Both the position numbers and the translations under genes were made by a program. From IMG/VR virus record IMGVR_UViG_648028025_000005: a stretch of 64,000 nt of DNA, one strand, 5' to 3'. Below, in pieces: positions 1,080 to 63,721 of the stretch. Source of the stretch: a virus. Its lineage: Duplodnaviria > Heunggongvirae > Uroviricota > Caudoviricetes. The notes beneath the pieces were generated by a model that saw only the letters and a list, made by a program, of their open reading frames with translations, was not told the origin of the DNA and ran no database searches. Numbering within the stretch: the stretch's first letter is position 1; each line of letters starts with the position of its first letter.

Positions 1080-1367
1080 TCAGATAGAGAAGGGAAATTG
1101 TCGCCGAGAATGTGTCACGCTTACAATCTCAATGCTTGAAGCAGCTACTCTGTACAGGATTATGTAGTTAGGGTGGGTCACGATCTCTCTCAATCCAGAA
1201 ACCCGTTCGCTTGGTGGATATAAGTACGGATGCTCAGATAGAGGTAATACCGATGTTTCAATGCGTATTTTTAGTCTACGTGCTGCCGGTGGGTTCTCCT
1301 TGGCGATGTAAGTTATGATCTGGCGCAAATCATCGCGAGCAGACGGTAGCCATAAAATGGGTAACAT
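1080..1367 (-). CDS. parE: type II toxin, ParE/RelE superfamily (ParE of a three-component paaR-paaA-parE module)
   Basis: 95 aa; ParE-like C-terminal pattern LREIVTHPNYIILYRV...HSRRQFP; start overlaps stop of upstream antitoxin ORF; operon position. Confidence 0.85.
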   Translation of the reverse strand: MLPILWLPSARDDLRQIITYIAKENPPAARRLKIRIETSVLPLSEHPYLYPPSERVSGLREIVTHPNYIILYRVAASSIEIVSVTHSRRQFPFSI

Positions 1368-1558
1368 TACTCGCTCTTGTTAGTTACAGCAATTTGAGCA
1401 ATAAGATTTTCCATTTCAGCCATTACCTCGTCATGTGGAATTGCGGGGCGAGTGTCTGCAAGGCTTGACGTTACTTTAGTGCGCAACCATTCGTTGTAAC
1501 TGTTTTCTTGTTCGGTAGTTTCGAATTCTGAAACTATCGGAGAAAGGGCTGTACCCAT
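1367..1558 (-). CDS. paaA: PaaA-family antitoxin (63 aa)
   Basis: 63-aa ORF immediately upstream of and overlapping parE; N-terminal SEFETTEQENSYNEWLR segment typical of PaaA-type antitoxins (recalled, not searched). Confidence 0.75.
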   Translation of the reverse strand: MGTALSPIVSEFETTEQENSYNEWLRTKVTSSLADTRPAIPHDEVMAEMENLIAQIAVTNKSE

Positions 1559-1585
1559 GGCATAACTCCTCTTCTTGTACTGTGG

Positions 1586-1987
1586 TCACGCCCGGCGGCT
1601 TTTTTGTGCCGCCAGCCACCTAGCAATGGTTTCTTCCATTGATTTTTTCTTGTCTTTGATTTCTTGAAGCATTTTTTCTTGGTCTTCCTCAGGAAACGCA
1701 CTAAAAGCTTGGAGCAGTTCGCGTTGGCGAGGACCAATTTTCATCGTGTCAGGGGTGAAAATTTGCTCACACTCTTCAGGAGGCAATAAAAACCAATGCA
1801 ATGGATGCCCTGAAACCTCAACCAGTTTATCCAAACTTGAGGCTTTAGGTGTAGCCTTACCGCTGACCCATTGTTGAACAGTTTGTTGTGTCACACCAAT
1901 TCTACGGGCAAGCTCAGCCTGGCTCCATCCAGTTTCCTGAAGAAGCTTGCTGATTCTGTACATAGATACTTCTAGGGCGCTCATCAT
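1586..1987 (-). CDS. paaR: HTH XRE-family repressor (PaaR/RacR-like); immunity repressor of prophage A
   Basis: 133 aa; helix-turn-helix QAELARRIGVTQQTVQQW; divergent from Cro-like gene across an operator-bearing intergenic region; first gene of repressor-antitoxin-toxin operon. Confidence 0.8.
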   Translation of the reverse strand: MMSALEVSMYRISKLLQETGWSQAELARRIGVTQQTVQQWVSGKATPKASSLDKLVEVSGHPLHWFLLPPEECEQIFTPDTMKIGPRQRELLQAFSAFPEEDQEKMLQEIKDKKKSMEETIARWLAAQKSRRA

Positions 1988-6607: not shown

Positions 6608-7197
6608 TGAAAATAACATGAAACCTTTGGATTCTGGTGTTTCAGTGGATGGGAAAAGAGCAGATACATAGAAAATGAATAGCAATAATTCACAGTCTGG
6701 ATGTTGTTTGTATGCTTATAAAATGATCCTAGTATGCATTGCCGGAGTTGAATCAGCTCCAATGAAGAAACTGAGAGGAGTATTTAGAAGATAGCTAAAT
6801 GGATGTAATTATTAGTATCTAAAAAATAGTATTTTTGAAATGGGTCTAAGAACACAACAATGTACAAATGAGAAGTTATCTTTTAATATGTTCAAAGACC
6901 CATTAGGATTGATATCAGTTATGTTAGCTAGATTGATAAAGTGATTACATATTTTCTGTTATATGCTGAAATGAATAATGCTATTCCAGAGTGCAGCAGA
7001 GAAAGTCTCCTGATGATTGAGCTCTGGAAATTGTACAATAGAAAAATTACTGTATTTTTCTGTCAAAATATTTCTCAAAACAGATTCCGCTTTGATGGCT
7101 TCAGGATATAAAGATGCGGAGTAATCAAGGCTAAGATTTCCGTTAAGCAAGCATATTGAACCGCCCCGGGTTCCTGGAGAGTGTTTTATCTGTGAAC

Positions 7198-8088
7198 TCA
7201 GGCTGCCAGATCATCGTTTCCGATGGAAGCATAATAAGCTTTTTCTGCTTCTGCCGGAGGAGTATGGCCCAGCCTTCCCAGCAATCGTCGATTGTTATAC
7301 CAGTCCACCCACGTTAGTGTGGCCAGTTCCACTTCTGCACGGTTTTTCCAGCTCTTACGGTGTATTACCTCCGCTTTGTAAAGACCATTGATGCTCTCAG
7401 CCATCGCGTTGTCATACGAGTCGCCTGTACTCCCTGTTGATGCCAGTAATCCGGCTTCTTTTAGTCGCTCCGTATAGGCCAGTGACACATACTGAGAGCC
7501 TTTATCGCTGTGATGGATGGTGCCAGACGGACGACGGGCCCACAACGCCTGCTCCAGCGCATCCAGCACGAATGTCGTTTCCATAGACGATGAGACCCGC
7601 CACCCCACGATGTATCCGGCAAACACATCAATGATAAACGCCACATAGACGAAGCCCTGCCATGTGCTGACGTAAGTAAAATCAGCCACCCACAGCTGGT
7701 CAGGTCGTTCTGCCACGAACTGACGGTTTACGCGGTCGCCTGCGGCAACGGCTTTCCGGCTGATGGTCGTACGGACCTTTTTACCCCGGAGAACACCGGC
7801 AAGTCCCATAACCGCCATGAGACGTGCCACTGTACATCTGGCCACCCTGATTCCTTCCCGTAACAACTGACGCCAGACTTTACGCACACCGTACACCTGA
7901 TGATTTTCATCGTATACGCGCTGTATCTCTCTCTTCAGCCAGTCGTCGTGCTGCGCACGGGCACTGCGTTTATCCGGATGATGTCGCTGTTGCTGACAAT
8001 GGTAATACGTTGACGGGGCAATATGCAGTTCGCTGCATACCGGTCCGACCCCGTACTGCTCACGCAGCTTATCCAGCAGTGGCATCAT
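7198..8088 (-). CDS. IS629 transposase OrfB (DDE catalytic domain)
   Basis: 296 aa, recognised IS3-family OrfB sequence ([16 protein letters not shown]...). Confidence 0.9.
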
Positions 8089-8411
8089 TTTTTCCAGAGG
8101 CGGTCGAACTCCGCCTTCGCAAAATAAGCGGAAGCCTGGCGAAGGATATCGTTACTGCGGCGCAGTTCACGATTTTCACGTTCCAGCTCTTTCAGACGCT
8201 GACGTTCAGCGCTGGTGAGCCCACCATCACCGCCCCCGGTATCCCGCTCATGCTGGCGAACCCAGACACGCAGGGTCTCCGGCGTACAGCCAATCTTTGG
8301 GGCAATGGAACAAATTGCCGCCCACTGTGAGTCATATTCATCCTGACTTTCCAGAACCATACGAATCGCCCGCTGACGGACTTCGGGGGAAAAACGAGTA
8401 TTTTTAGTCAT
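8085..8411 (-). CDS. IS629 transposase OrfA
   Basis: 108 aa HTH protein [19 protein letters not shown]...; overlaps orfB start at A-rich run (GGAAAAAATGATG). Confidence 0.9.
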
Positions 8412-9499
8412 CCTGTTTACCTCTTTCTCAGGGAGTTTAGTCTCCAGGATTTCCGGGGCGGTTCATATACTTTTAGTGTGCTTTGATTCTGATATATCAT
8501 CTTTAATTATCTTGATGATTCTTTCATTCTGCCATAGAAGTGATGGTGCAGATATATAATAATAGTTAAAGCATGAATTATTTTTTAAGCAATCAAGCAC
8601 AAAAATAGCACCTAGCGAGTGCCCCCATATACCGATTCTGGAACTGTTCGGAGCAATAGTACTAACCCATGGCATGATCTGAGTTAGTAATAATTCTCGG
8701 AAAGACTGGCTTCCTCCACCAGTAAAGTAGATCCATGCTGGTTTAGAGTTATCAACAATAGCATTTTCACCATCAGGAGTATAATCGTAAGCACGGCGAT
8801 GAATGCTAAGGTTATTCCAAGATTCATAACCAAGTGTAACTAACACTGGTGGATTGGGTAGTGCATCAATAACAGGCAGAATATCAGAAATGTAATTGTT
8901 GGCACTATTCCCATCAAGTATATAAAGAGTTGCATTATTTTTTTTAATGTTTTTTGGAGTAAAAATACATATTTTATATTTGGTGTCATGGTTAATTGAG
9001 TTAAATATGCGTGTTTGACAATGAATGTCCATATGTTTAGTCATGCGTTCTCCCCATGAGCATTAAAGGATGCTTAAGATATGCTATGTCACTGATAAAA
9101 AATTTGTTGTGTGTGTTTAGTTATTTTATCTACCTCCATTATGATTTAAGACTGATATATGTTATCAGCAAAGGTACATCGTTATTATTTTACCTGTCAA
9201 TACATTTGATATTGATTATCGTTTACATCGCTTGCTTAGGAAATTGAAGGCAGGTAACTATCATGTCAATGAACTAACCCACAGTCTAACGTACTTCTTT
9301 CCCCAATCACCAACAACCAAATTCCTGTTATCACCACTGGGATTTTGGCGCAACTTCATGGTGCAGAGGTAAATAGCATCAAGCAAAATCTCTTTTTCCG
9401 TTGTTGTCCTTATGGGACGTCTGTCTTTCTGACCGATTTCATATTGGCGAGGTAATGGGAAGTTAAGTAGAATAGCTGCGGGTGCTTGAGGCTATCTGC

Positions 9500-9648
9500 C
9501 TCGGGCATGAACACCAACGGCAGATAGAGAAAAGCCCCAGTTAACATTACGCGTCCTGCAAGACGCTTAACATTAATCTGAGGCTCAATCTATGAACGGC
9601 AAATCTAGGTTAGCCTCTTACGTGCCGAAAGGCAAGGAGAAGCAGGCT
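9500..9648. promoter_or_regulatory. hok leader region; expected location of mok start and antisense sok RNA
   Basis: by analogy with hok/sok loci only; in-frame upstream extension of hok ORF begins at 9592; no sok promoter mapped. Confidence 0.3.
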
Positions 9649-9804
9649 ATGAAGCAGCAAAAGGCGATGTTAATCGCCCTGATCGTCATCTGTTTAACCG
9701 TCATAGTGACGGCACTGGTAACGAGGAAAGACCTCTGCGAGGTACGAATCCGAACCGGCCAGACGGAGGTCGCTGTCTTCACAGCTTACGAACCTGAGGA
9801 GTAA
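9649..9804 (+). CDS. hok: Hok/Gef-family type I toxin (HokD/RelF-like, 51 aa)
   Basis: MKQQKAMLIALIVICLTVIVTALVTRKDLCEVRIRTGQTEVAVFTAYEPEE; single transmembrane helix; followed by terminator. Confidence 0.85.
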   Translation: MKQQKAMLIALIVICLTVIVTALVTRKDLCEVRIRTGQTEVAVFTAYEPEE

Positions 9805-9872
9805 GAGACCAGGCGGGGGAGAAATCCCTCGCCACCTCTGATGAATCAGGCATCCTCAACGCACCCGCACTT

Positions 9873-9899
9873 AACCCGCTTCGGCGGGTTTTGTTTTTT
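9873..9899 (+). terminator. rho-independent terminator after hok
   Basis: hairpin AACCCGC-TTCG-GCGGGTT followed by TTTGTTTTTT. Confidence 0.5.
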
Positions 9900-9971
9900 C
9901 CTGGCATTCTGGTTTACAATTCGCACGCCAGCCTGAACAACTGGCACCTGCTGCGCCAGCAGAGACAACCG

Positions 9972-10250
9972 ATGGCGCACGATACCAAATTATACAATTC
10001 TGATGATTCTGCCGTCTTTGCCAGCAGGCGCGGACGGTGTTTTCACGCATTCAAATCTGACTGGTACCAGCATCCCCCATGCACTGAAGAACAGGCCGAA
10101 TGGCTCATTCAGTGTTACCGCAGGCGCGGATGCGAGGTTAAAAAAGCCCTTAGCCTCGACTACCGTCACTGGATAATCTCCGTCAGGCTCCCTTACTCCG
10201 AACGGCCACCGCGTCCGTCCCGCACATTCCAGCAACGGATCTGGAGGTAA
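9972..10250 (+). CDS. small hypothetical protein upstream of DUF968 gene (Rem-position)
   Basis: ATG 9972 (MAHDTKLYNSD); paralog in B at 58845-59117. Confidence 0.5.
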   Translation: MAHDTKLYNSDDSAVFASRRGRCFHAFKSDWYQHPPCTEEQAEWLIQCYRRRGCEVKKALSLDYRHWIISVRLPYSERPPRPSRTFQQRIWR

Positions 10251-10251
10251 T

Positions 10252-11301
10252 GTGCGGGTATTACTTCGACCTGTTCTGGTACCGGAACTCGGTCTGGTTA
10301 TCGTTAAGCCAGGCCGTGAATCCATGCGGGTATTTCATGGCGGCAGGGTGCTGGTGGAGTCTGAACCGAAAAGCATGCGTAATCTGCCGTCCGGGGTCGT
10401 TCCTGCCGTTCGCCAGCCGCTGGCGGAAGATAAATCATTACTGCCATTTTTCAGCAATGAGCGTGTGATTCGTGCTGCTGGTGGCGCTGGTGCACTGTCT
10501 GACTGGTTATTACGTCACGTTAAATCCTGCCAGTGGCCTCATGGTGATTACCACCACAGCGAAACCGTCATACATCGTTACGGTACCGGCGCGATGGTGT
10601 TGTGCTGGCACTGCGACAACCAGCTGCGCGACCAGACATCCGAATCACTTGAGCAACTTGCTCAACAAAACCTGTCAGCATGGATGATTGACGTCATCCG
10701 CCACGCAATGAATGGCACACAGGAACGGGAATTATCGCTGGCTGAATTATCCTGGTGGGCAGTCTGCAATCAGGTGGTGGACGCATTACCTGAGGCAGTA
10801 TCGCGTCGTTCTCTGGGATTACCGGCGGAAAAAATCCGCTCCGTATACCGTGAAAGCGACATCATACCGGGAGAACAGACCGCCACCAGCATACTGAAGC
10901 AGCGCACAAAAAATATTGCGCTACCGCCTCACACCCACCAGCAACAGAACCCACCACAGGAAAAGACGGTGGTCAGCATTGCCGTTGATCCGGAGTCTCC
11001 GGAATCCTTCATGAAACGACCTAAACGTCGCCGCTGGGTAAATGAGAAATACACACGCTGGGTAAAGACACAGCCGTGTGCGTGTTGTGGTAAGCCAGCG
11101 GACGATCCTCATCATCTGATTGGTCATGGTCAGGGTGGAATGGGAACAAAATCCCACGATATTTTCACGCTACCGCTGTGTCGGGAGCATCACAACGAGC
11201 TTCATGCGGATCCGCTGGCGTTCGAAGAAAAGCATGGTTCCCAGGTTGATTTAATTTTTCGTTTTCTTGATCACGCTTTTGCAACCGGCGTGCTCGGGTA
11301 A
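10252..11301 (+). CDS. DUF968-family protein (YdfU-like) with C-terminal Cys/His motif
   Basis: 349 aa, GTG start after upstream stop; C-terminal CACCGKPADDPHHLIGHGQGGMGTKSHD...CREHH; paralog in B at 59119-60165. Confidence 0.8.
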   Translation: MRVLLRPVLVPELGLVIVKPGRESMRVFHGGRVLVESEPKSMRNLPSGVVPAVRQPLAEDKSLLPFFSNERVIRAAGGAGALSDWLLRHVKSCQWPHGDYHHSETVIHRYGTGAMVLCWHCDNQLRDQTSESLEQLAQQNLSAWMIDVIRHAMNGTQERELSLAELSWWAVCNQVVDALPEAVSRRSLGLPAEKIRSVYRESDIIPGEQTATSILKQRTKNIALPPHTHQQQNPPQEKTVVSIAVDPESPESFMKRPKRRRWVNEKYTRWVKTQPCACCGKPADDPHHLIGHGQGGMGTKSHDIFTLPLCREHHNELHADPLAFEEKHGSQVDLIFRFLDHAFATGVLG

Positions 11302-11313
11302 AAGAGGTTACTG

Positions 11314-11685
11314 ATGCGTATAGAGTTTGTTTTGCCTTACCCGCCGACGGTGAACACCTACTGGCGACGTCGTGGCAGCACATATTTTGTATCAAAAGCC
11401 GGTGAGCGTTATCGCCGGGCTGTGGCGCTTATTGTTCGCCAGCAGCGGCTGAAATTAAGCCTGTCCGGACGGCTGGCAATAAAAATTATTGCAGAACCAC
11501 CGGATAAGCGCCGCCGTGACCTGGACAACATTCTGAAAGCACCGCTGGATGCGCTGACGCATGCGGAAGTGCTCATTGATGACGAGCAGTTTGATGAAAT
11601 CAATATTGTGCGCGGTCAGCCTGTGCCAGGTGGACGGCTGGGCGTGAAGATTTACGAAATCAGAGGTGGTAACGATGGCGCGTGA
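11314..11685 (+). CDS. rusA: Holliday junction resolvase RusA
   Basis: 123 aa; RusA signature [15 protein letters not shown]...[13 protein letters not shown]. Confidence 0.9.
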
Positions 11686-14669: not shown

Positions 14670-14734
14670 AAATGTCTCACAATTCAGGCGGTTGACTGTT
14701 GTCTGGTTTGCGGGGAGTTTGTTAAAAGAAACTG

Positions 14735-14842
14735 GCATGGTGAATCCCCCTGTGCGGAGGGGCAATCAGCGAGTAGGTATATGGGATAATCGCGGATTCA
14801 GGTGCTGGTACTGAATTCACCGGGAGGCACCCGGCACCATGC
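14735..14842. promoter_or_regulatory. conserved ~105-bp non-coding element upstream of nanS-p (copy A)
   Basis: ~90% identical copy at 63442-63549; contains hairpin CCCCCTGTGCGGAGGGG; A copy followed by hairpins at ~14868-14920. Confidence 0.35.
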
Positions 14843-15118
14843 AATGGCACATAGCGCCACTCTCCAGCCCCTCTCCGGAGGGGCTTTCTTATGGACAAAA
14901 AAAGCCCGCGCAGGGAGACGCGGGCGGCAAGGAATAAACAACAAAACGTGAAGTAATATTTCAGCTGGCGAATAATATCCGACAGTAATCACTCTGCGCA
15001 ATAGCGCGGCCTTTTTCGTATTGCGGGCTGTTGTCTCTCTTCTGCCATTGTCCTGTAACTTCCGGACTTCAGCCCGCTCCTCATTTTACTCACAATATTA
15101 TCCCGGCCGGGAGGATTC

Positions 15119-57942: not shown

Positions 57943-58146
57943 CCTGGCCTGAAGCATTCACAACGGTAGGAATTGCGATGGCGGTGGCGCTGGTGGTGTA
58001 TTCGATTTGCCGCTGGGGATAAATCGCCGAAAAAAGATCCCGACATAAACATGAGCCGGGATCTTTGATTTATATAGCCTACGAATCCGCCAGTAAGAGA
58101 GGGGGCGGACGGTTAATTCTAACACCGGAATGATGTGGGTAAAAGT

Positions 58147-58446
58147 TTATAAGAAATCGGTTTCATAACTTTGCCCACCATGATAGATACCGACAATAAA
58201 GACTTTTCTGCTATCAACGGCAAAAGCAATAATCGTTCTGTGGCGGAAATGAGTTACCCGCATCCCCTGGCGAATATCATCGCGTTTATTGCCCCGATGC
58301 GGGAATGTAGAAAACCCATCAAGATAATCAAGAAGCGCATTGGCATAATTGTCAGCAATGACGTTCCCTGCTTTCTCCGTTATATACCTGTGCAGGTTGA
58401 TTATTTGTTGTTCGGCCTCAGGAGTAATGATGACTTCATATGTCAT
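58147..58446 (-). CDS. parE: type II toxin ParE (RelE/ParE superfamily)
   Basis: 99 aa; ParE-like C-terminus RQGMRVTHFRHRTIIAFAVDSRKVFIVGIYHGGQ; downstream of ParD-like antitoxin. Confidence 0.8.
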   Translation of the reverse strand: MTYEVIITPEAEQQIINLHRYITEKAGNVIADNYANALLDYLDGFSTFPHRGNKRDDIRQGMRVTHFRHRTIIAFAVDSRKVFIVGIYHGGQSYETDFL

Positions 58447-58451
58447 GCAGA

Positions 58452-58709
58452 TTACTTCCCGGATCGAATCGCGGCGCGAACCTGTGAAATGGAGCGTCCG
58501 TTGTTTGGATTTTCGCGGATAGAATCAAGAGAGGGGGCGGCTGAATGCGTTAACCACGCTTCGATTGCTTTATCGCGCTCATTCAGTGCGCGAAGCCCTT
58601 CACGAATGACCTCGCTTTCTGAAGCATAGGCACCGGAAGCCACACGGGCGCGCACCATGTCAGCCATTTCGTTAGTTAATGTAATGCTGAATTGTTGGGT
58701 TGTACGCAT
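58452..58709 (-). CDS. parD: type II antitoxin ParD (ribbon-helix-helix)
   Basis: 85 aa from ATG 58709 (MRTTQQFSITLTNEMADMVRARVASGAYASESEVIREGLRAL). Confidence 0.75.
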   Translation of the reverse strand: MRTTQQFSITLTNEMADMVRARVASGAYASESEVIREGLRALNERDKAIEAWLTHSAAPSLDSIRENPNNGRSISQVRAAIRSGK

Positions 58710-58844
58710 GGTAAACCTCACGGAGTAGGATAGAACACCATTCGATGATAGCACGTTGCCTGTTGACGACAACAGAAATCAGAGACAATATTGCCGCACG
58801 CCAGCTTGAACAACTGGCACCTGCTGCGCCAGCAGAGAAAACCG

Positions 58845-59117
58845 ATGGCGCACAATACCAAACATCACAATTCTGATATCGCCCCTGCCAGCAGGCAAGG
58901 GCGGTGTTCTCACACATTCAAATATGACTGGTATCAGCACGATCCCTGCACTGAAGAACAGGCCGAATGGCTGATTCATAACTACCGCAGACGTGGGTAT
59001 GAGTTTAAGAAAGCCCTTAGCCTCGACTACCGTCACTGGATAATCTACGTCAGGCTCCTTTATTCCGAACGCCCGCCGCGTCCGTCCCGCACATTCCAGC
59101 AACGCATCTGGAGGTAA
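58845..59117 (+). CDS. small hypothetical protein upstream of DUF968 gene (Rem-position)
   Basis: paralog of 9972-10250. Confidence 0.5.
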   Translation: MAHNTKHHNSDIAPASRQGRCSHTFKYDWYQHDPCTEEQAEWLIHNYRRRGYEFKKALSLDYRHWIIYVRLLYSERPPRPSRTFQQRIWR

Positions 59118-59118
59118 C

Positions 59119-60165
59119 GTGCGGGTATTACTTCGACCTGTTCTGGTACCGGAACTCGGGCTGGTGATCGTTAAGCCGGGTCGTGAATCCATGCCGGTAT
59201 TCCACAATACCCGGGTACTGGTGGAGCCGGAACCGAAAAGCATGCGTAATCTGCCGTCCGGGGTTGTTCCTGCCGTTCGCCAGCCGCTAGTGGAAGACAA
59301 AACATTGCTGCCGTTTTTCAGTAACGCACGGGTGATTCGTGCTGCTGGTGGTGCTGGTGCATTGTCTGACTGGCTGTTGCGCCATATTAAATCCTGCCAG
59401 TGGCCACACGGCGATTATCATCACAGCGAAACCGTCATTCACCGTTATGGTACCGGCGCAATGGTGTTGTGCTGGCACTGCGACAACCAGCTGCGCGACC
59501 AGACATCCGAATCACTCGGGCAGCTTGCTCAACAAAATCTGACAGCCTGGATGATTGACGTCATACGTCACGCAATAAGTGGTGCACAGGAACGGGAATT
59601 ATCTCTGGCTGAATTATCCTGGTGGGCGGTCCGCAATCAGGTGGCGGACGCGCTACCGGAAGCGGTATTACGTCGTTCGCTGGGGTTGCGTGCGGAAAAA
59701 ATCCGCTCAATGTACCGTGAAAGCGACATCGTACCGGGAGAGCAGACCGCCACCAGCATACTGAAGCAGCGCACAAAAAATCTTGCGCCGCTGCCTCACG
59801 CTCACCAGCAAAAACCGCCACAGGAAAAGACGGTGGTCAGCATTGCCGTTGATCCTGAGTCTCCGGAATCTTTCATGAAACGACCTAAACGTCGCCGCTG
59901 GGTTAACGAGAAATACACGCACTGGGTGAAGACACAGCCGTGTGCGTGTTGTGGTAAGCCTGCTGACGATCCGCATCACCTGATTGGTCATGGTCAGGGG
60001 GGAATGGGGACAAAATCTCACGATATTTTCACGCTACCGCTGTGTCGGGAGCATCACAACGAGCTTCATGCGGATCCGCTGGCGTTCGAAGAAAAGCATG
60101 GTTCTCAGGTTGATTTAATTTTTCGTTTTCTTGATCACGCCTTTGCAACTGGCGTGCTTGGGTAA
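59119..60165 (+). CDS. DUF968-family protein (YdfU-like)
   Basis: 348 aa; paralog of 10252-11301. Confidence 0.8.
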   Translation: MRVLLRPVLVPELGLVIVKPGRESMPVFHNTRVLVEPEPKSMRNLPSGVVPAVRQPLVEDKTLLPFFSNARVIRAAGGAGALSDWLLRHIKSCQWPHGDYHHSETVIHRYGTGAMVLCWHCDNQLRDQTSESLGQLAQQNLTAWMIDVIRHAISGAQERELSLAELSWWAVRNQVADALPEAVLRRSLGLRAEKIRSMYRESDIVPGEQTATSILKQRTKNLAPLPHAHQQKPPQEKTVVSIAVDPESPESFMKRPKRRRWVNEKYTHWVKTQPCACCGKPADDPHHLIGHGQGGMGTKSHDIFTLPLCREHHNELHADPLAFEEKHGSQVDLIFRFLDHAFATGVLG

Positions 60166-60177
60166 AAGAGGTGACTG

Positions 60178-60537
60178 ATGCTCATAGATTTGGTTTTACC
60201 TTACCCGCCGACGGTGAACACTTACTGGCGACGCCGTGGCAGCACATATTTTATCTCGGAGGAGGGAAAGCGTTATCGCCGGGCTGTGGCGCTTATTGTT
60301 CGCCAGCAGCGGCTGAAATTAAGCCTGTCCGGAAGGCTGGCGATAAAGGTGATTGCAGAGCCACCGGATAAGCGCCGCCGTGACCTGGACAACATTCTGA
60401 AAGCACCGCTGGATGCGCTGACGCATGCGGAAGTGCTCATTGATGACGAGCAGTTTGATGAAATCAATATTGTGCGCGGTCAGCCAGTATCTGGTGGACG
60501 GCTGGGTGTGAAGATTTACAAAATTGAGAGTGAGTGA
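60178..60537 (+). CDS. rusA: Holliday junction resolvase RusA
   Basis: 119 aa; paralog of 11314-11685. Confidence 0.9.
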   Translation: MLIDLVLPYPPTVNTYWRRRGSTYFISEEGKRYRRAVALIVRQQRLKLSLSGRLAIKVIAEPPDKRRRDLDNILKAPLDALTHAEVLIDDEQFDEINIVRGQPVSGGRLGVKIYKIESE

Positions 60538-63408: not shown

Positions 63409-63441
63409 TTTTTTTGTTTGCTGTTTATTAAAAACACTTCT

Positions 63442-63549
63442 GCATGGTGAATCCCCCTGTGCGGAGGGGCGATCAGCAACCAGGTATATGGGATAATCGC
63501 GGATTCAGGTGCTGATACTGAATTCACCGGGAGGCACCCGGCACCATGC
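63442..63549. promoter_or_regulatory. conserved ~105-bp non-coding element upstream of nanS-p (copy B)
   Basis: ~90% identical to 14735-14842. Confidence 0.35.
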
Positions 63550-63721
63550 TTTGCCACAAAAGTGTTGTTTCTGTTTTTCTCAAACTATCATCGTTATCCC
63601 TTTATTTCCGGCTGCGCATGGCGTGGCCTTTTTTTACGACCAGCCACTGGCAGATGGCCATCCTGTAATTTGATTCCGGTTCCGGCTTTTTAACTCTGTT
63701 CCTGTACACGGGAGAAATTCG

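What the first reader, a model, noticed from the sequence alone, without database searches (positions are those of the whole stretch)
9500..9899. Second TA hotspot: hok (type I) in prophage A versus parDE (type II) in prophage B at the same nin-region position
Immediately upstream of the conserved small-ORF/DUF968/rusA block, A carries a HokD-identical 51-aa toxin with a ~400-bp leader and terminator, while B carries a minus-strand ParD-ParE pair (58147-58709). The window therefore holds four toxin-antitoxin modules at two exchangeable slots.
Basis: partly seen in the sequence, partly recalled or inferred. Interest (0 to 1): 0.55.

Follow-up and report, generated by a model that had tools for sequence, protein, structure and literature searches.

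The report
Prophage hok/sok versus parDE cargo slot
Two neighbouring lambda-like prophages of an E. coli strain carry, at the same spot just before a conserved gene block, either a complete hok/sok toxin-antitoxin locus or a parDE toxin-antitoxin pair; both modules are real and probably functional, but both are common, already annotated and closely related to studied systems, so the finding is correct and largely ordinary.

Summary
Window 9444-9899 is a complete hok/sok/mok type I toxin-antitoxin locus. The Hok ORF (9649-9804) matches K-12 hokD at every nucleotide. Rfam's hok/sok model scores 107 bits (threshold 59). The locus is 93.6% identical to the experimentally validated hokW-sokW of phage 933W/Sp5. 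One correction: the leader is about 170 nt (start near 9480), not about 400; the whole mRNA is about 420 nt. Prophage B carries parD (58452-58709) and parE (58147-58446) on the minus strand, both with family support. Homology between A and B starts at 9922 and 58795, right after each module, then runs 1.7 kb through rem-like ORF, DUF968 and rusA. In 80 related viral contigs hok is the usual occupant. ParDE replaces it in five. Other cargo (RelE/HTH, Doc, RosmerTA, restriction-modification) sits between hok and rem, flanked by two copies of the hok terminator. The hok-rem junction occurs in 2427 of 5426 complete E. coli genomes and the parD-rem junction in 327. The "exchangeable slot" reading is supported, but the parts are known. 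The modestly new points are the terminator-bounded cargo site and a hypervariable Sok-target patch.

The parts
9444..9473 (+). hok promoter-like site: -35 TTGGCG, 18-nt spacer, -10 TAGAAT. It predicts a transcript start near 9480.
   Evidence: The -10 is conserved in 933W; the -35 region differs there. Homology among hok loci begins between 9425 and 9461.
9480..9897 (+). Full-length hok mRNA (~418 nt).
   Evidence: The Rfam RF01794 match starts at 9480. MFE -172.9 kcal/mol, z = -7.9 against shuffles.
9480..9491 (+). tac element: the 5' end GGGUGCUUGAGG, which pairs with fbi.
   Evidence: Paired with 9854-9866 in the MFE fold and in the RNAalifold consensus. All 12 pairs are kept in 52 of 52 unique loci.
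9530..9600 (-). Sok antisense RNA (~71 nt): single-stranded 5' tail, long hairpin, U-tail.
   Evidence: Mapped from the annotated sokW of 933W, AF125520. Fold z = -4.5.
9607..9635 (-). sok promoter: -35 TTGCCT (9635-9630), 17-bp spacer, -10 TAACCT (9612-9607).
   Evidence: Read from the sequence. The stretch is almost invariant in the 52-locus alignment. The scan did not report it because the -10 matches only 3 of 6 consensus positions.
9587..9604 (.). Hypervariable patch: mok ATG and codons 2-5, which is also the 5' end of Sok and its target.
   Evidence: Entropy 0.82-0.89 bit per column, against <0.1 in the hok CDS. There are 19 variants of a 29-nt stretch among 52 unique loci.
9592..9804 (+). 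mok-like ORF: 70 codons, in frame with hok and reading through it.
   Evidence: It is kept as a 70-codon in-frame ORF in 46 of 52 unique loci despite variable codons 2-5. It is annotated mokW in 933W.
9649..9804 (+). hok toxin gene (51 aa, HokD-identical).
   Evidence: PGAP annotates it as 'type I toxin-antitoxin system toxin HokD' in identical genomes.
9854..9866 (+). fbi element CCUCAACGCACCC, which pairs with the mRNA 5' end.
9873..9899 (+). Intrinsic terminator of hok (AACCCGC-TTCG-GCGGGTT plus T-run). It is also the repeated boundary of cargo cassettes in related loci.
   Evidence: The 19-mer occurs once in the 64-kb window, but twice, flanking the extra cargo, in L079, L071, L049/L068/L073, L045 and L066.
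9922..11685 (+). Conserved right flank in A: rem-like ORF 9972-10250, DUF968 10252-11301, rusA 11314-11685.
   Evidence: 89% identical to B 58795-60524. Pfam DUF968 2.4e-77, RusA 1.1e-15.
58027..58066 (-). Hairpin plus U-run downstream of parE; likely the parDE terminator. The same palindrome on the + strand is followed by a weaker T-rich stretch (TTTGATTT).
   Evidence: Fold of 58020-58146 on the minus strand. The scan missed it because the loop exceeds 8 nt.
58147..58446 (-). parE toxin gene (99 aa).
   Evidence: Pfam ParE_toxin 4.5e-10. The best PDB hit is the toxin chain of a ParDE complex, 6x0a_A, E = 0.011. PGAP names it a RelE/ParE family toxin.
58452..58709 (-). parD antitoxin gene (85 aa, ribbon-helix-helix type). 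Its stop lies 5 nt before the parE start.
   Evidence: Pfam 2.3e-7, TIGR02606 1.5e-14, PDB ParD chains 3kxe_C, 7ycv and 6x0a_a.
58745..58772 (-). parDE promoter-like site: TTGTCG, 16-nt spacer, TG-TATCAT.
58795..60537 (+). Conserved right flank in B: rem-like ORF 58845-59117, DUF968 59119-60165, rusA 60178-60537.
1080..1987 (-). First slot, prophage A: ParE-family toxin 1080-1367, PaaA2-like antitoxin 1367-1558, HTH repressor 1586-1987.
   Evidence: Pfam ParE_toxin 2.9e-17, PaaA2 5.6e-19, HTH_3 2.3e-12. NCBIfam RelB-family antitoxin 1.6e-26.
49921..50585 (+). First slot, prophage B: HigB toxin 49921-50223 and HTH antitoxin 50226-50585.
   Evidence: Pfam HigB_toxin 4.8e-33, HTH_3 4.3e-6. PGAP annotation in E2865.

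Best explanation
Window 9444-9899 is an intact hok/sok/mok type I toxin-antitoxin cassette. It is the full-length form of the locus that survives only as a 5'-truncated remnant (hokD/relF) in K-12 Qin. It sits in the nin region of lambdoid prophage A, directly upstream of rem-DUF968-rusA-Q.

Inferred working, by homology to R1 hok/sok and to hokW-sokW:
1. A stable ~420-nt hok mRNA is made from its own promoter.
2. It is kept untranslatable by pairing of its 5' end (tac) with a 3' element (fbi).
3. Slow 3' trimming frees the 5' end and refolds the RNA, so that mok, and through it hok, can be translated.
4. The short-lived ~71-nt Sok RNA, made from a promoter inside the mok/hok overlap, pairs with the mok start region. 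The duplex is cut by RNase III.
5. When Sok supply falls (loss of the element, transcription shut-off, or prophage induction), Hok is made and depolarises the inner membrane.

In prophage B the same junction holds a self-contained parDE type II operon on the opposite strand, with its own promoter and terminator. ParD neutralises ParE and probably autoregulates the operon.

The site just upstream of rem is a variable cargo position of Escherichia/Shigella lambdoid prophages:
- hok is its usual occupant;
- further TA or defence cassettes are added between hok and rem, bounded by a duplicated copy of the hok terminator;
- or the whole cassette is replaced, as by parDE here.

Shown here: the anatomy, the family membership, the structural conservation and the population survey. 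Inferred: expression, toxicity, and the biological role (prophage retention, abortive infection, or help with lysis).
For: Family membership of hok:
- Rfam RF01794 107.1 bits against a gathering score of 59.
- Pfam HOK_GEF 3e-23.
- CDS identical to K-12 hokD.
- 93.6% nucleotide identity over 9458-9876 to 933W, where mokW, hokW and sokW are annotated.
- hokW-sokW was shown experimentally to be a type I TA that depends on RNase III and Hfq (PMC8621323).

Regulatory elements:
- hok promoter and terminator.
- tac-fbi pairing in the MFE fold, z = -7.9. It is kept in 52 of 52 unique homologous loci, and four other pairs show compensatory changes.
- Sok fold, z = -4.5.
- mok ORF kept in 46 of 52 loci although its codons 2-5 are hypervariable.

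Intactness relative to K-12: K-12 homology starts only at 9635, so K-12 lacks the promoter, tac, sokT and the mok start.

parDE:
- Family matches.
- Promoter and terminator hairpin.
- Antitoxin-first order with a 5-nt gap.

The slot:
- A/B homology begins at 9922 / 58795.
- Survey of 80 IMG/VR loci.
- Duplicated terminator around the extra cargo.
- Junction counts of 2427 and 327 out of 5426 complete E. coli genomes.
Against: - No expression or toxicity data exist for this copy.
- Three native chromosomal hok loci tested earlier (hokA of E. coli C, hokB of K-12, hokC of ECOR24) did not mediate post-segregational killing (as summarised in 10.1101/2025.08.07.668861).
- The sok -10 hexamer (TAACCT) is weak, and the generic promoter scan did not find it.
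- No operator-like inverted repeat was found upstream of parD.
- ParE has no NCBIfam hit, and its only PDB hit is marginal, so ParE-type activity (gyrase) as opposed to RelE-type activity is not settled.
- The left side of the slot is not conserved between A and B.
- The 80-locus sample consists of the closest relatives of one DUF968 protein, so it is redundant and biased.
Confidence: 0.85

Rival explanations
1. The hok locus is an evolutionary relic that no longer works as a toxin-antitoxin system, as reported for chromosomal hok loci of K-12. It is simply carried along with the prophage.
For: [quoted passage not shown] K-12 hokD itself is a truncated remnant.
Against: - Every known regulatory element is intact here, and conserved across 52 unique loci with compensatory changes.
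- The HokD peptide is toxic when expressed.
- The 93.6%-identical hokW-sokW is a working TA.
- The K-12 relic lacks exactly the 5' part that this copy retains.
Confidence: 0.1
2. There is no dedicated slot. hok and parDE lie next to rem in the two prophages only because the nin region of lambdoid phages is mosaic everywhere, so the shared position is incidental.
For: Only the right flank is shared between A and B. The nearest shared left sequence is kilobases away. In 933W the hok locus is not in the nin region at all: it lies near the right end of the genome.
Against: - Cargo of at least seven kinds ends at the same flank in independent contigs.
- The extra cargo is bracketed by two copies of a 19-nt terminator that occurs only once in the 64-kb window.
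- parDE joins the flank at the same nucleotide in 4 of 5 loci.
- K-12 has relBE at the same place.
Confidence: 0.12
3. The modules serve mainly as anti-phage (abortive infection) cargo that protects the lysogen, rather than as addiction modules that retain the prophage or as helpers of lysis.
For: - The same site holds recognised defence systems in related loci: RosmerTA (RmrA 5.5e-102 and 6.2e-105, RmrT 7.5e-10 and 4.6e-25) and a C5-methylase/NgoMIV-type restriction pair.
- R1 hok/sok reduces T4 plating (cited in PMC8621323).
Against: - For the closest studied relative, the measured effect is faster lysis and a twofold higher phage yield on induction, not defence.
- The Hok preprint found no enrichment of hok near defence systems.
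- PADLOC has no model that matches Hok, ParD or ParE of this window.
Confidence: 0.3

Closest known systems
hokW-sokW-mokW of Stx2 phage 933W / Sakai prophage Sp5
   Same: 93.6% nucleotide identity over window 9458-9876. Same order of promoter, tac, Sok, mok, hok and fbi. 51-aa Hok, 70-codon in-frame mok, 71-nt Sok. It is experimentally a type I TA.
   Different: - The first ~12 nt of Sok and mok codons 2-5 differ: window ATGAACGGCAAATCT, 933W ATGCTGAACACATGT.
- The Hok C-terminus differs...FTAYEPEE here...FVDYESEK in 933W.
- The 933W copy lacks the ACCCGC-TTCG-GCGGG terminator.
- The 933W copy lies near the right end of the phage genome, followed by a YgiW-like gene, not in the nin region.
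hokD (relF) of the K-12 Qin cryptic prophage, downstream of relBE
   Same: Identical Hok CDS and 98% identity over 9635-9898. Same neighbours on the right: rem, then ydfU (DUF968), then Q.
   Different: K-12 lacks everything upstream of 9635 (promoter, tac, Sok terminator and target, mok start) because relBE abuts there. The window copy is the complete locus.
hok/sok of plasmid R1 (parB), the founding member of the family
   Same: Same regulatory logic and elements. The Rfam model built on this family matches end to end, positions 1-157 of 157.
   Different: From my own knowledge of the R1 sequence, mok there is out of frame with hok; here mok is in frame and reads through hok. That in-frame layout also holds for 933W mokW. 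R1 hok/sok is on a plasmid; this copy is in a prophage. HokW is only 44% identical to R1 Hok.
ParD-ParE type II systems (Caulobacter ParD1-ParE1, PDB 3kxe; the ParDE complex PDB 6x0a)
   Same: Antitoxin-first two-gene operon. RHH-type ParD N-terminus (E = 4e-4 to 3kxe_C). ParE-fold toxin. Both window proteins hit the two chains of one solved complex, 6x0a.
   Different: Sequence similarity is low: ParE E = 0.011 and no NCBIfam hit. The biochemical target was not tested. The location is a prophage, not a plasmid or chromosome.
Prophage-encoded hotspots of defence systems (P2 and P4 hotspots, Rousset et al. 2022, PMC9122126)
   Same: A fixed position between conserved phage genes holds alternative TA and defence cassettes in otherwise related elements.
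   Different: This is a different phage family and a different site (nin region of lambdoid phages). One occupant (hok) dominates. Only the right flank is tightly conserved. Cassettes are bounded by a repeated terminator. No description of this site was found in six literature searches.

Membership tests
[quoted passage not shown] | Small hydrophobic Hok/Gef-family peptide (~50 aa). | tested here: met
   Pfam PF01848 3e-23 over model positions 1-42 of 42. CDS identical to K-12 hokD.
[quoted passage not shown] | hok mRNA leader with the family's conserved sequence and structure (covariance model). | tested here: met
   Rfam RF01794 107.1 bits against a gathering score of 59, full-length match 9480-9654.
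[quoted passage not shown] | Fold-back inhibition: the 5' tac element pairs with the 3' fbi element in the full-length mRNA. | tested here: met
   9480-9491 pairs with 9854-9866 in the MFE fold (z = -7.9). The 12 pairs are kept in 52 of 52 loci, with GU wobble changes only. These pairs barely vary, so covariation neither supports nor contradicts them.
[quoted passage not shown] | mok reading frame that starts upstream of hok and overlaps it. | tested here: met
   70-codon ORF 9592-9804, conserved in 46 of 52 loci.
[quoted passage not shown] | cis-encoded antisense Sok RNA with its own promoter and terminator, complementary to the mok start region. | tested here: met
   Maps onto the annotated 71-nt sokW. 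Promoter is TTGCCT, 17-bp spacer, TAACCT. Fold is a 5' tail plus terminator hairpin. Transcription itself was not tested.
[quoted passage not shown] | Hok kills or arrests cells, and Sok prevents this through RNase III cleavage. | not testable with these tools
   Shown for the 93.6%-identical hokW-sokW (PMC8621323) and for HokD overexpression, not for this copy.
ParD-ParE type II toxin-antitoxin | ParE/RelE-superfamily toxin. | tested here: met
   Pfam PF05016 4.5e-10 over model positions 1-89 of 89. PDB 6x0a_A E = 0.011. No NCBIfam hit.
ParD-ParE type II toxin-antitoxin | RHH-type ParD antitoxin encoded immediately upstream in the same operon. | tested here: met
   Pfam PF03693 2.3e-7, TIGR02606 1.5e-14, seven PDB ParD chains. 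The gap to parE is 5 nt.
ParD-ParE type II toxin-antitoxin | Operator (repeat) in the promoter, bound by ParD for autoregulation. | tested here: inconclusive
   A promoter-like site lies at 58772-58745, but no inverted repeat was found in 58650-58850.
ParD-ParE type II toxin-antitoxin | The toxin poisons DNA gyrase (ParE) rather than cleaving mRNA on the ribosome (RelE). | not testable with these tools
   The partner type (ParD) favours ParE. No biochemical or residue-level test was done.
Prophage-encoded defence/TA hotspot | Conserved flanking phage genes with alternative cargo between them in related elements. | tested here: met
   The right flank (rem/DUF968) is constant. Cargo classes: hok, hok + small ORF, hok + RelE/HTH, hok + XRE/M78 peptidase, hok + RosmerTA, hok + Doc, Doc alone, R-M, parDE. 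The left flank is not conserved between A and B.
Prophage-encoded defence/TA hotspot | Cargo is enriched in anti-phage systems relative to other phage loci. | not tested
   Only a biased sample of 80 + 23 loci was examined, and no comparison locus was scored.

The most novel reading that the evidence does not exclude
The position between the hok terminator and rem may be a true cassette-exchange hotspot of Escherichia/Shigella lambdoid prophages, comparable to the P2/P4 defence hotspots. In this reading, TA and defence modules (parDE, relBE, RelE/HTH, Doc, RosmerTA, R-M) are gained and lost by recombination at a repeated ~19-nt terminator. Separately, the hypervariable Sok 5'-end/target patch (19 variants in otherwise ~95% identical loci) may reflect selection for mutually orthogonal hok/sok pairs among the several hok-bearing prophages that co-reside in EHEC genomes.
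Probability: 0.4. Interest if true: 0.45.

Novelty: already known. Interest (0 to 1): 0.22.

Why it matters
Practical value:
- It identifies what an intact hokD locus looks like. The K-12 textbook copy is a relic whose 5' control region was displaced by relBE.
- It shows that a 420-bp prophage cassette present in nearly half of complete E. coli genomes carries all hok/sok control elements. Routine annotation marks only the 51-aa ORF; neither sok nor mok was annotated in the RefSeq record examined.
- It corrects the annotation of the second module family in the window: paaA-parE, not relBE.

If the slot is a real hotspot, it gives a simple anchor (rem/DUF968 plus the hok terminator) for mining TA and defence cargo in lambdoid prophages of pathogenic E. 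coli.

None of this changes current understanding of how hok/sok or parDE work.

Tried and rejected
1. '~400-bp leader' (9240-9650). Rejected.
- Nothing in 9045-9440 matches any Rfam family, even at E <= 1.
- The promoter and the start of the covariance-model match put the 5' end near 9480.
- Homology among hok loci begins at 9425-9461.

2. hok remnant next to parDE in prophage B. None found: blastn of A against B gives no hok similarity, and the hok terminator 19-mer is absent from B.

3. ParE against solved structures at the default threshold gave nothing. At E <= 10 there is a single marginal hit.

4. PADLOC on Hok, ParD, ParE, the hydrolase, DUF968 and Rem gave no hits.

5. Operator repeats upstream of parD: none.

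6. Cross-species scan (genome contigs).
- The hok-rem-DUF968 linkage appears only in loci labelled Escherichia or Shigella, plus one bin labelled Veillonella that carries the same arrangement and is probably misassigned.
- More distant DUF968 loci (Enterobacter, Klebsiella, Kosakonia, Phytobacter) have other neighbours.
- They say nothing about the slot.

7. Covariation support for tac-fbi. The pairs are almost invariant, so conservation is shown but covariation is not.

8. Literature. Six searches found no description of this nin-region slot. This is absence in the held library, not proof of novelty.

9. Co-resident orthogonality of Sok variants. Only one pair of hok loci from one genome was available (L005 and L007, which differ in the patch). 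That is too few to test the idea.
Full report
**What is at the coordinates**

The ORF list shows a 70-codon frame at 9592-9804 (+). Its last 51 codons (9649-9804) read MKQQKAMLIALIVICLTVIVTALVTRKDLCEVRIRTGQTEVAVFTAYEPEE. This matches Pfam HOK_GEF at 3e-23. In a pairwise alignment the CDS is identical at every nucleotide to hokD of K-12 MG1655.

Rfam's hok/sok model RF01794 matches 9480-9654 on the + strand at 107.1 bits, against a gathering score of 59, over the full model. Although the family is named 'sok', the match lies on the hok strand and covers the hok mRNA leader.

A sigma-70-like promoter (TTGGCG, 18-nt spacer, TAGAAT, 9444-9473) predicts a start near 9480. An intrinsic terminator lies at 9873-9899.

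The transcript is therefore about 420 nt with a leader of about 170 nt. Nothing in 9045-9440 matches an RNA family, and homology among hok loci begins only at 9425-9461.

**Regulatory anatomy**

- **tac-fbi.** Folding 9480-9897 pairs the first 12 nt (GGGUGCUUGAGG) with CCUCAACGCACCC at 9854-9866. The energy is 7.9 standard deviations below shuffled controls. This is the tac-fbi fold-back that defines the family.
- **Conservation of the fold.** I aligned 52 unique homologous loci. The consensus fold keeps all 12 tac-fbi pairs in every sequence. Four other pairs show compensatory double changes, for example A-U to G-C at columns 15/47 in 13 sequences. The tac-fbi pairs barely vary, so they show conservation rather than covariation.
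- **Sok.** Phage 933W (AF125520) is 93.6% identical over 9458-9876 and has mokW, hokW and a 71-nt SokW antisense RNA annotated. Mapped onto the window, Sok runs from 9600 to 9530 on the minus strand. It is preceded by TTGCCT (9635-9630), a 17-bp spacer and TAACCT (9612-9607). It folds into a single-stranded 5' tail, a long hairpin and a U-tail (z = -4.5).
- **Experimental support from the close relative.** Takada et al. showed that hokW-sokW is a working type I system. It depends on RNase III and Hfq. After mitomycin C, Sok falls, HokW rises, and phage release roughly doubles compared with a deletion mutant (PMC8621323).

All sequence-level defining features of the family are therefore met. 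Activity of this particular copy is inferred.

**Relation to K-12**

K-12 similarity starts only at 9635, 14 nt before the hok ATG, and runs at 98% to 9898. Upstream of that point K-12 has relE. The K-12 order is relB-relE-hokD-rem-ydfU(DUF968)-Q. That is the same place in a lambdoid nin region.

The window copy is thus the intact form of the locus, and the K-12 hokD is a 5'-truncated remnant. K-12 is a third example of a different TA module at this site.

**Prophage B**

On the minus strand, parD (58452-58709, 85 aa) and parE (58147-58446, 99 aa) are separated by 5 nt.

- ParD matches Pfam ParD_antitoxin (2.3e-7), TIGR02606 (1.5e-14) and solved ParD chains, including Caulobacter ParD1 3kxe_C.
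- ParE matches Pfam ParE_toxin over the full model (4.5e-10). Its only PDB hit is marginal: the toxin chain of complex 6x0a. The antitoxin chain of that same complex also matches the window ParD.
- A promoter-like site lies at 58772-58745. A hairpin with a U-run lies at 58066-58027.
- No operator repeat was found.
- Whether the toxin acts on gyrase was not testable.

**Same position?**

blastn of A against B gives an 89% match of 1739 bp that starts at A 9922 = B 58795. In A that is 22 bp after the hok terminator. In B it is 86 bp upstream of the parD start codon. The match runs through the rem-like ORF, DUF968 and rusA.

The left side is not shared. The nearest common sequence ends at A 6573 and B 54520. 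'Same position' therefore holds relative to the right flank only.

The two other TA modules also sit at one shared position, just after a common left flank (A 814-1026 = B 49657-49865) and beside the repressor gene:

- In A: a PaaA2-like antitoxin plus a ParE-family toxin next to an HTH repressor. This is the paaR-paaA-parE layout of CP-933P.
- In B: HigB plus an HTH antitoxin.

The claim of four TA modules at two slots holds.

**Is it a slot in general?**

I fetched 80 viral contigs that encode close relatives of the DUF968 protein and classified what lies upstream:

| Class | Loci |
|---|---|
| Full hok locus abutting the flank, as in the window | 27 |
| hok plus a further 0.3-0.4 kb, in most sampled cases with one small ORF | about 20 |
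| hok plus 0.7-2.1 kb of further cargo | 8 |
| parDE instead of hok, joined at the same nucleotide in 4 of them | 5 |
| Doc-like pair without an intact hok | 2 |
| C5-methylase/NgoMIV-type restriction pair after the first 105 bp of the hok locus | 3 |

The larger extra cargo comprises:
- a RelE (PF06296)/HTH pair;
- an XRE/M78-peptidase pair;
- two different RosmerTA pairs (RmrA 5.5e-102 and 6.2e-105);
- a Fic/Doc pair;
- a lipoprotein.

Where cargo lies between hok and rem, the 19-nt hok terminator ACCCGCTTCGGCGGGTTTT is present twice, once after hok and once after the cargo. It occurs only once in the whole 64-kb window. That points to the terminator as the recombination boundary of the cassettes.

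In complete E. coli genomes, the hok-rem junction is present in 2427 of 5426 and the parD-rem junction in 327. Among 23 loci from other species' genomes, the linkage is confined to Escherichia/Shigella.

The sample is biased towards close relatives of one protein, and no control junction was scored. The hotspot reading is therefore well supported descriptively but not statistically.

**An extra observation**

Across the 52 unique loci the hok CDS is almost invariant (<0.1 bit per column). Entropy peaks at 9587-9604 (0.82-0.89 bit), which covers the mok ATG and codons 2-5. This is also the 5' end of Sok and its target. There are 19 variants of a 29-nt stretch.

mok nevertheless stays a 70-codon in-frame ORF in 46 of 52 loci. 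This fits a requirement for its translation rather than for its peptide sequence.

The patch is where Sok first meets its target in the R1 paradigm (my knowledge of the family, not tested here). The variation could therefore set pairing specificity among the several hok loci of one genome (median 2, up to 10 places per genome). I could not test this.

**Novelty**

- The window sequence is 100% identical to many sequenced EHEC chromosomes (O145, O26, O103), in which hokD, ParD and the RelE/ParE toxin are already annotated.
- hok is reported to be enriched in prophages (10.1101/2025.08.07.668861).
- The mechanism is textbook, and the nearest relative has been studied experimentally.
- I found no paper describing this particular nin-region cargo site, the duplicated terminator boundaries or the variable Sok patch. 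These are extensions of known ideas (morons, prophage defence hotspots).

**Verdict**

Noticed in passing
window 7157-8463: A 1307-bp IS3-family insertion sequence: two overlapping ORFs on the minus strand and the ALIL frameshift pseudoknot RF01497 at 8014-8130. It interrupts the 3' part of the alpha/beta-hydrolase moron gene next to hok. The otherwise 99.9%-identical strain E2865 lacks it. A 5-bp overlap at the edges looks like a target duplication.
   Followed up: partly
window 1080-1987 (minus strand): The TA module beside the prophage A repressor is a PaaA2-like antitoxin (PF21217, 5.6e-19) plus a ParE-family toxin (PF05016, 2.9e-17), directly downstream of an HTH repressor. Cro-like and YdaT genes lie opposite. 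This is the paaR-paaA-parE three-gene arrangement described for CP-933P of O157:H7 (PMC8630535), not a classical relBE.
   Followed up: partly
L079, L071, L049/L068/L073, L045, L066 (IMG/VR loci); window 9874-9892: Extra cargo inserted between hok and rem is flanked by two copies (0-2 mismatches) of the 19-nt hok terminator ACCCGCTTCGGCGGGTTTT. Doc-only loci keep one copy at the right end of the cargo. parDE loci have none.
   Followed up: partly
window 9587-9604: The mok start and codons 2-5, which are also the 5' end of Sok and its target, form by far the most variable part of the hok locus: 19 variants among 52 unique loci that are otherwise ~95% identical. The mok ORF is nevertheless kept open.
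   Followed up: partly
window 9787-9790: The Tyr47 codon of hok is TAC followed by G, and it is invariant in all 52 loci. A recent preprint states that hokC, hokD and hokE mRNAs are A-to-I edited by TadA at this position, recoding it to Cys. The site is intact here.
   Followed up: no
L013, L014, L053 (IMG/VR loci): A C5 cytosine methylase plus an NgoMIV-family restriction enzyme follows the first 105 bp of the hok locus. The rest of hok is missing, so the restriction-modification pair has displaced the toxin while leaving the hok promoter and 5' leader.
   Followed up: partly
window 14706-14896 and 63413-63585; 48602-48653: Each prophage carries a STnc100-family sRNA match (138 and 105 bits) downstream of its three-tRNA cluster. 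Prophage B carries DicF (75 bits) on the minus strand.
   Followed up: no
window 9813-9894: The hok 3' UTR gives a sub-threshold match to the Salmonella prophage sRNA family isrK (27 bits against a gathering score of 50). It probably reflects only a hairpin plus terminator.
   Followed up: no
L088, L093, L097 (genome contigs): Contigs that carry this Escherichia-type prophage block, or a DUF968 relative, are labelled as Veillonella, Geobacteraceae and Caulobacter metagenome bins. These are most likely binning contamination rather than true hosts.
   Followed up: no
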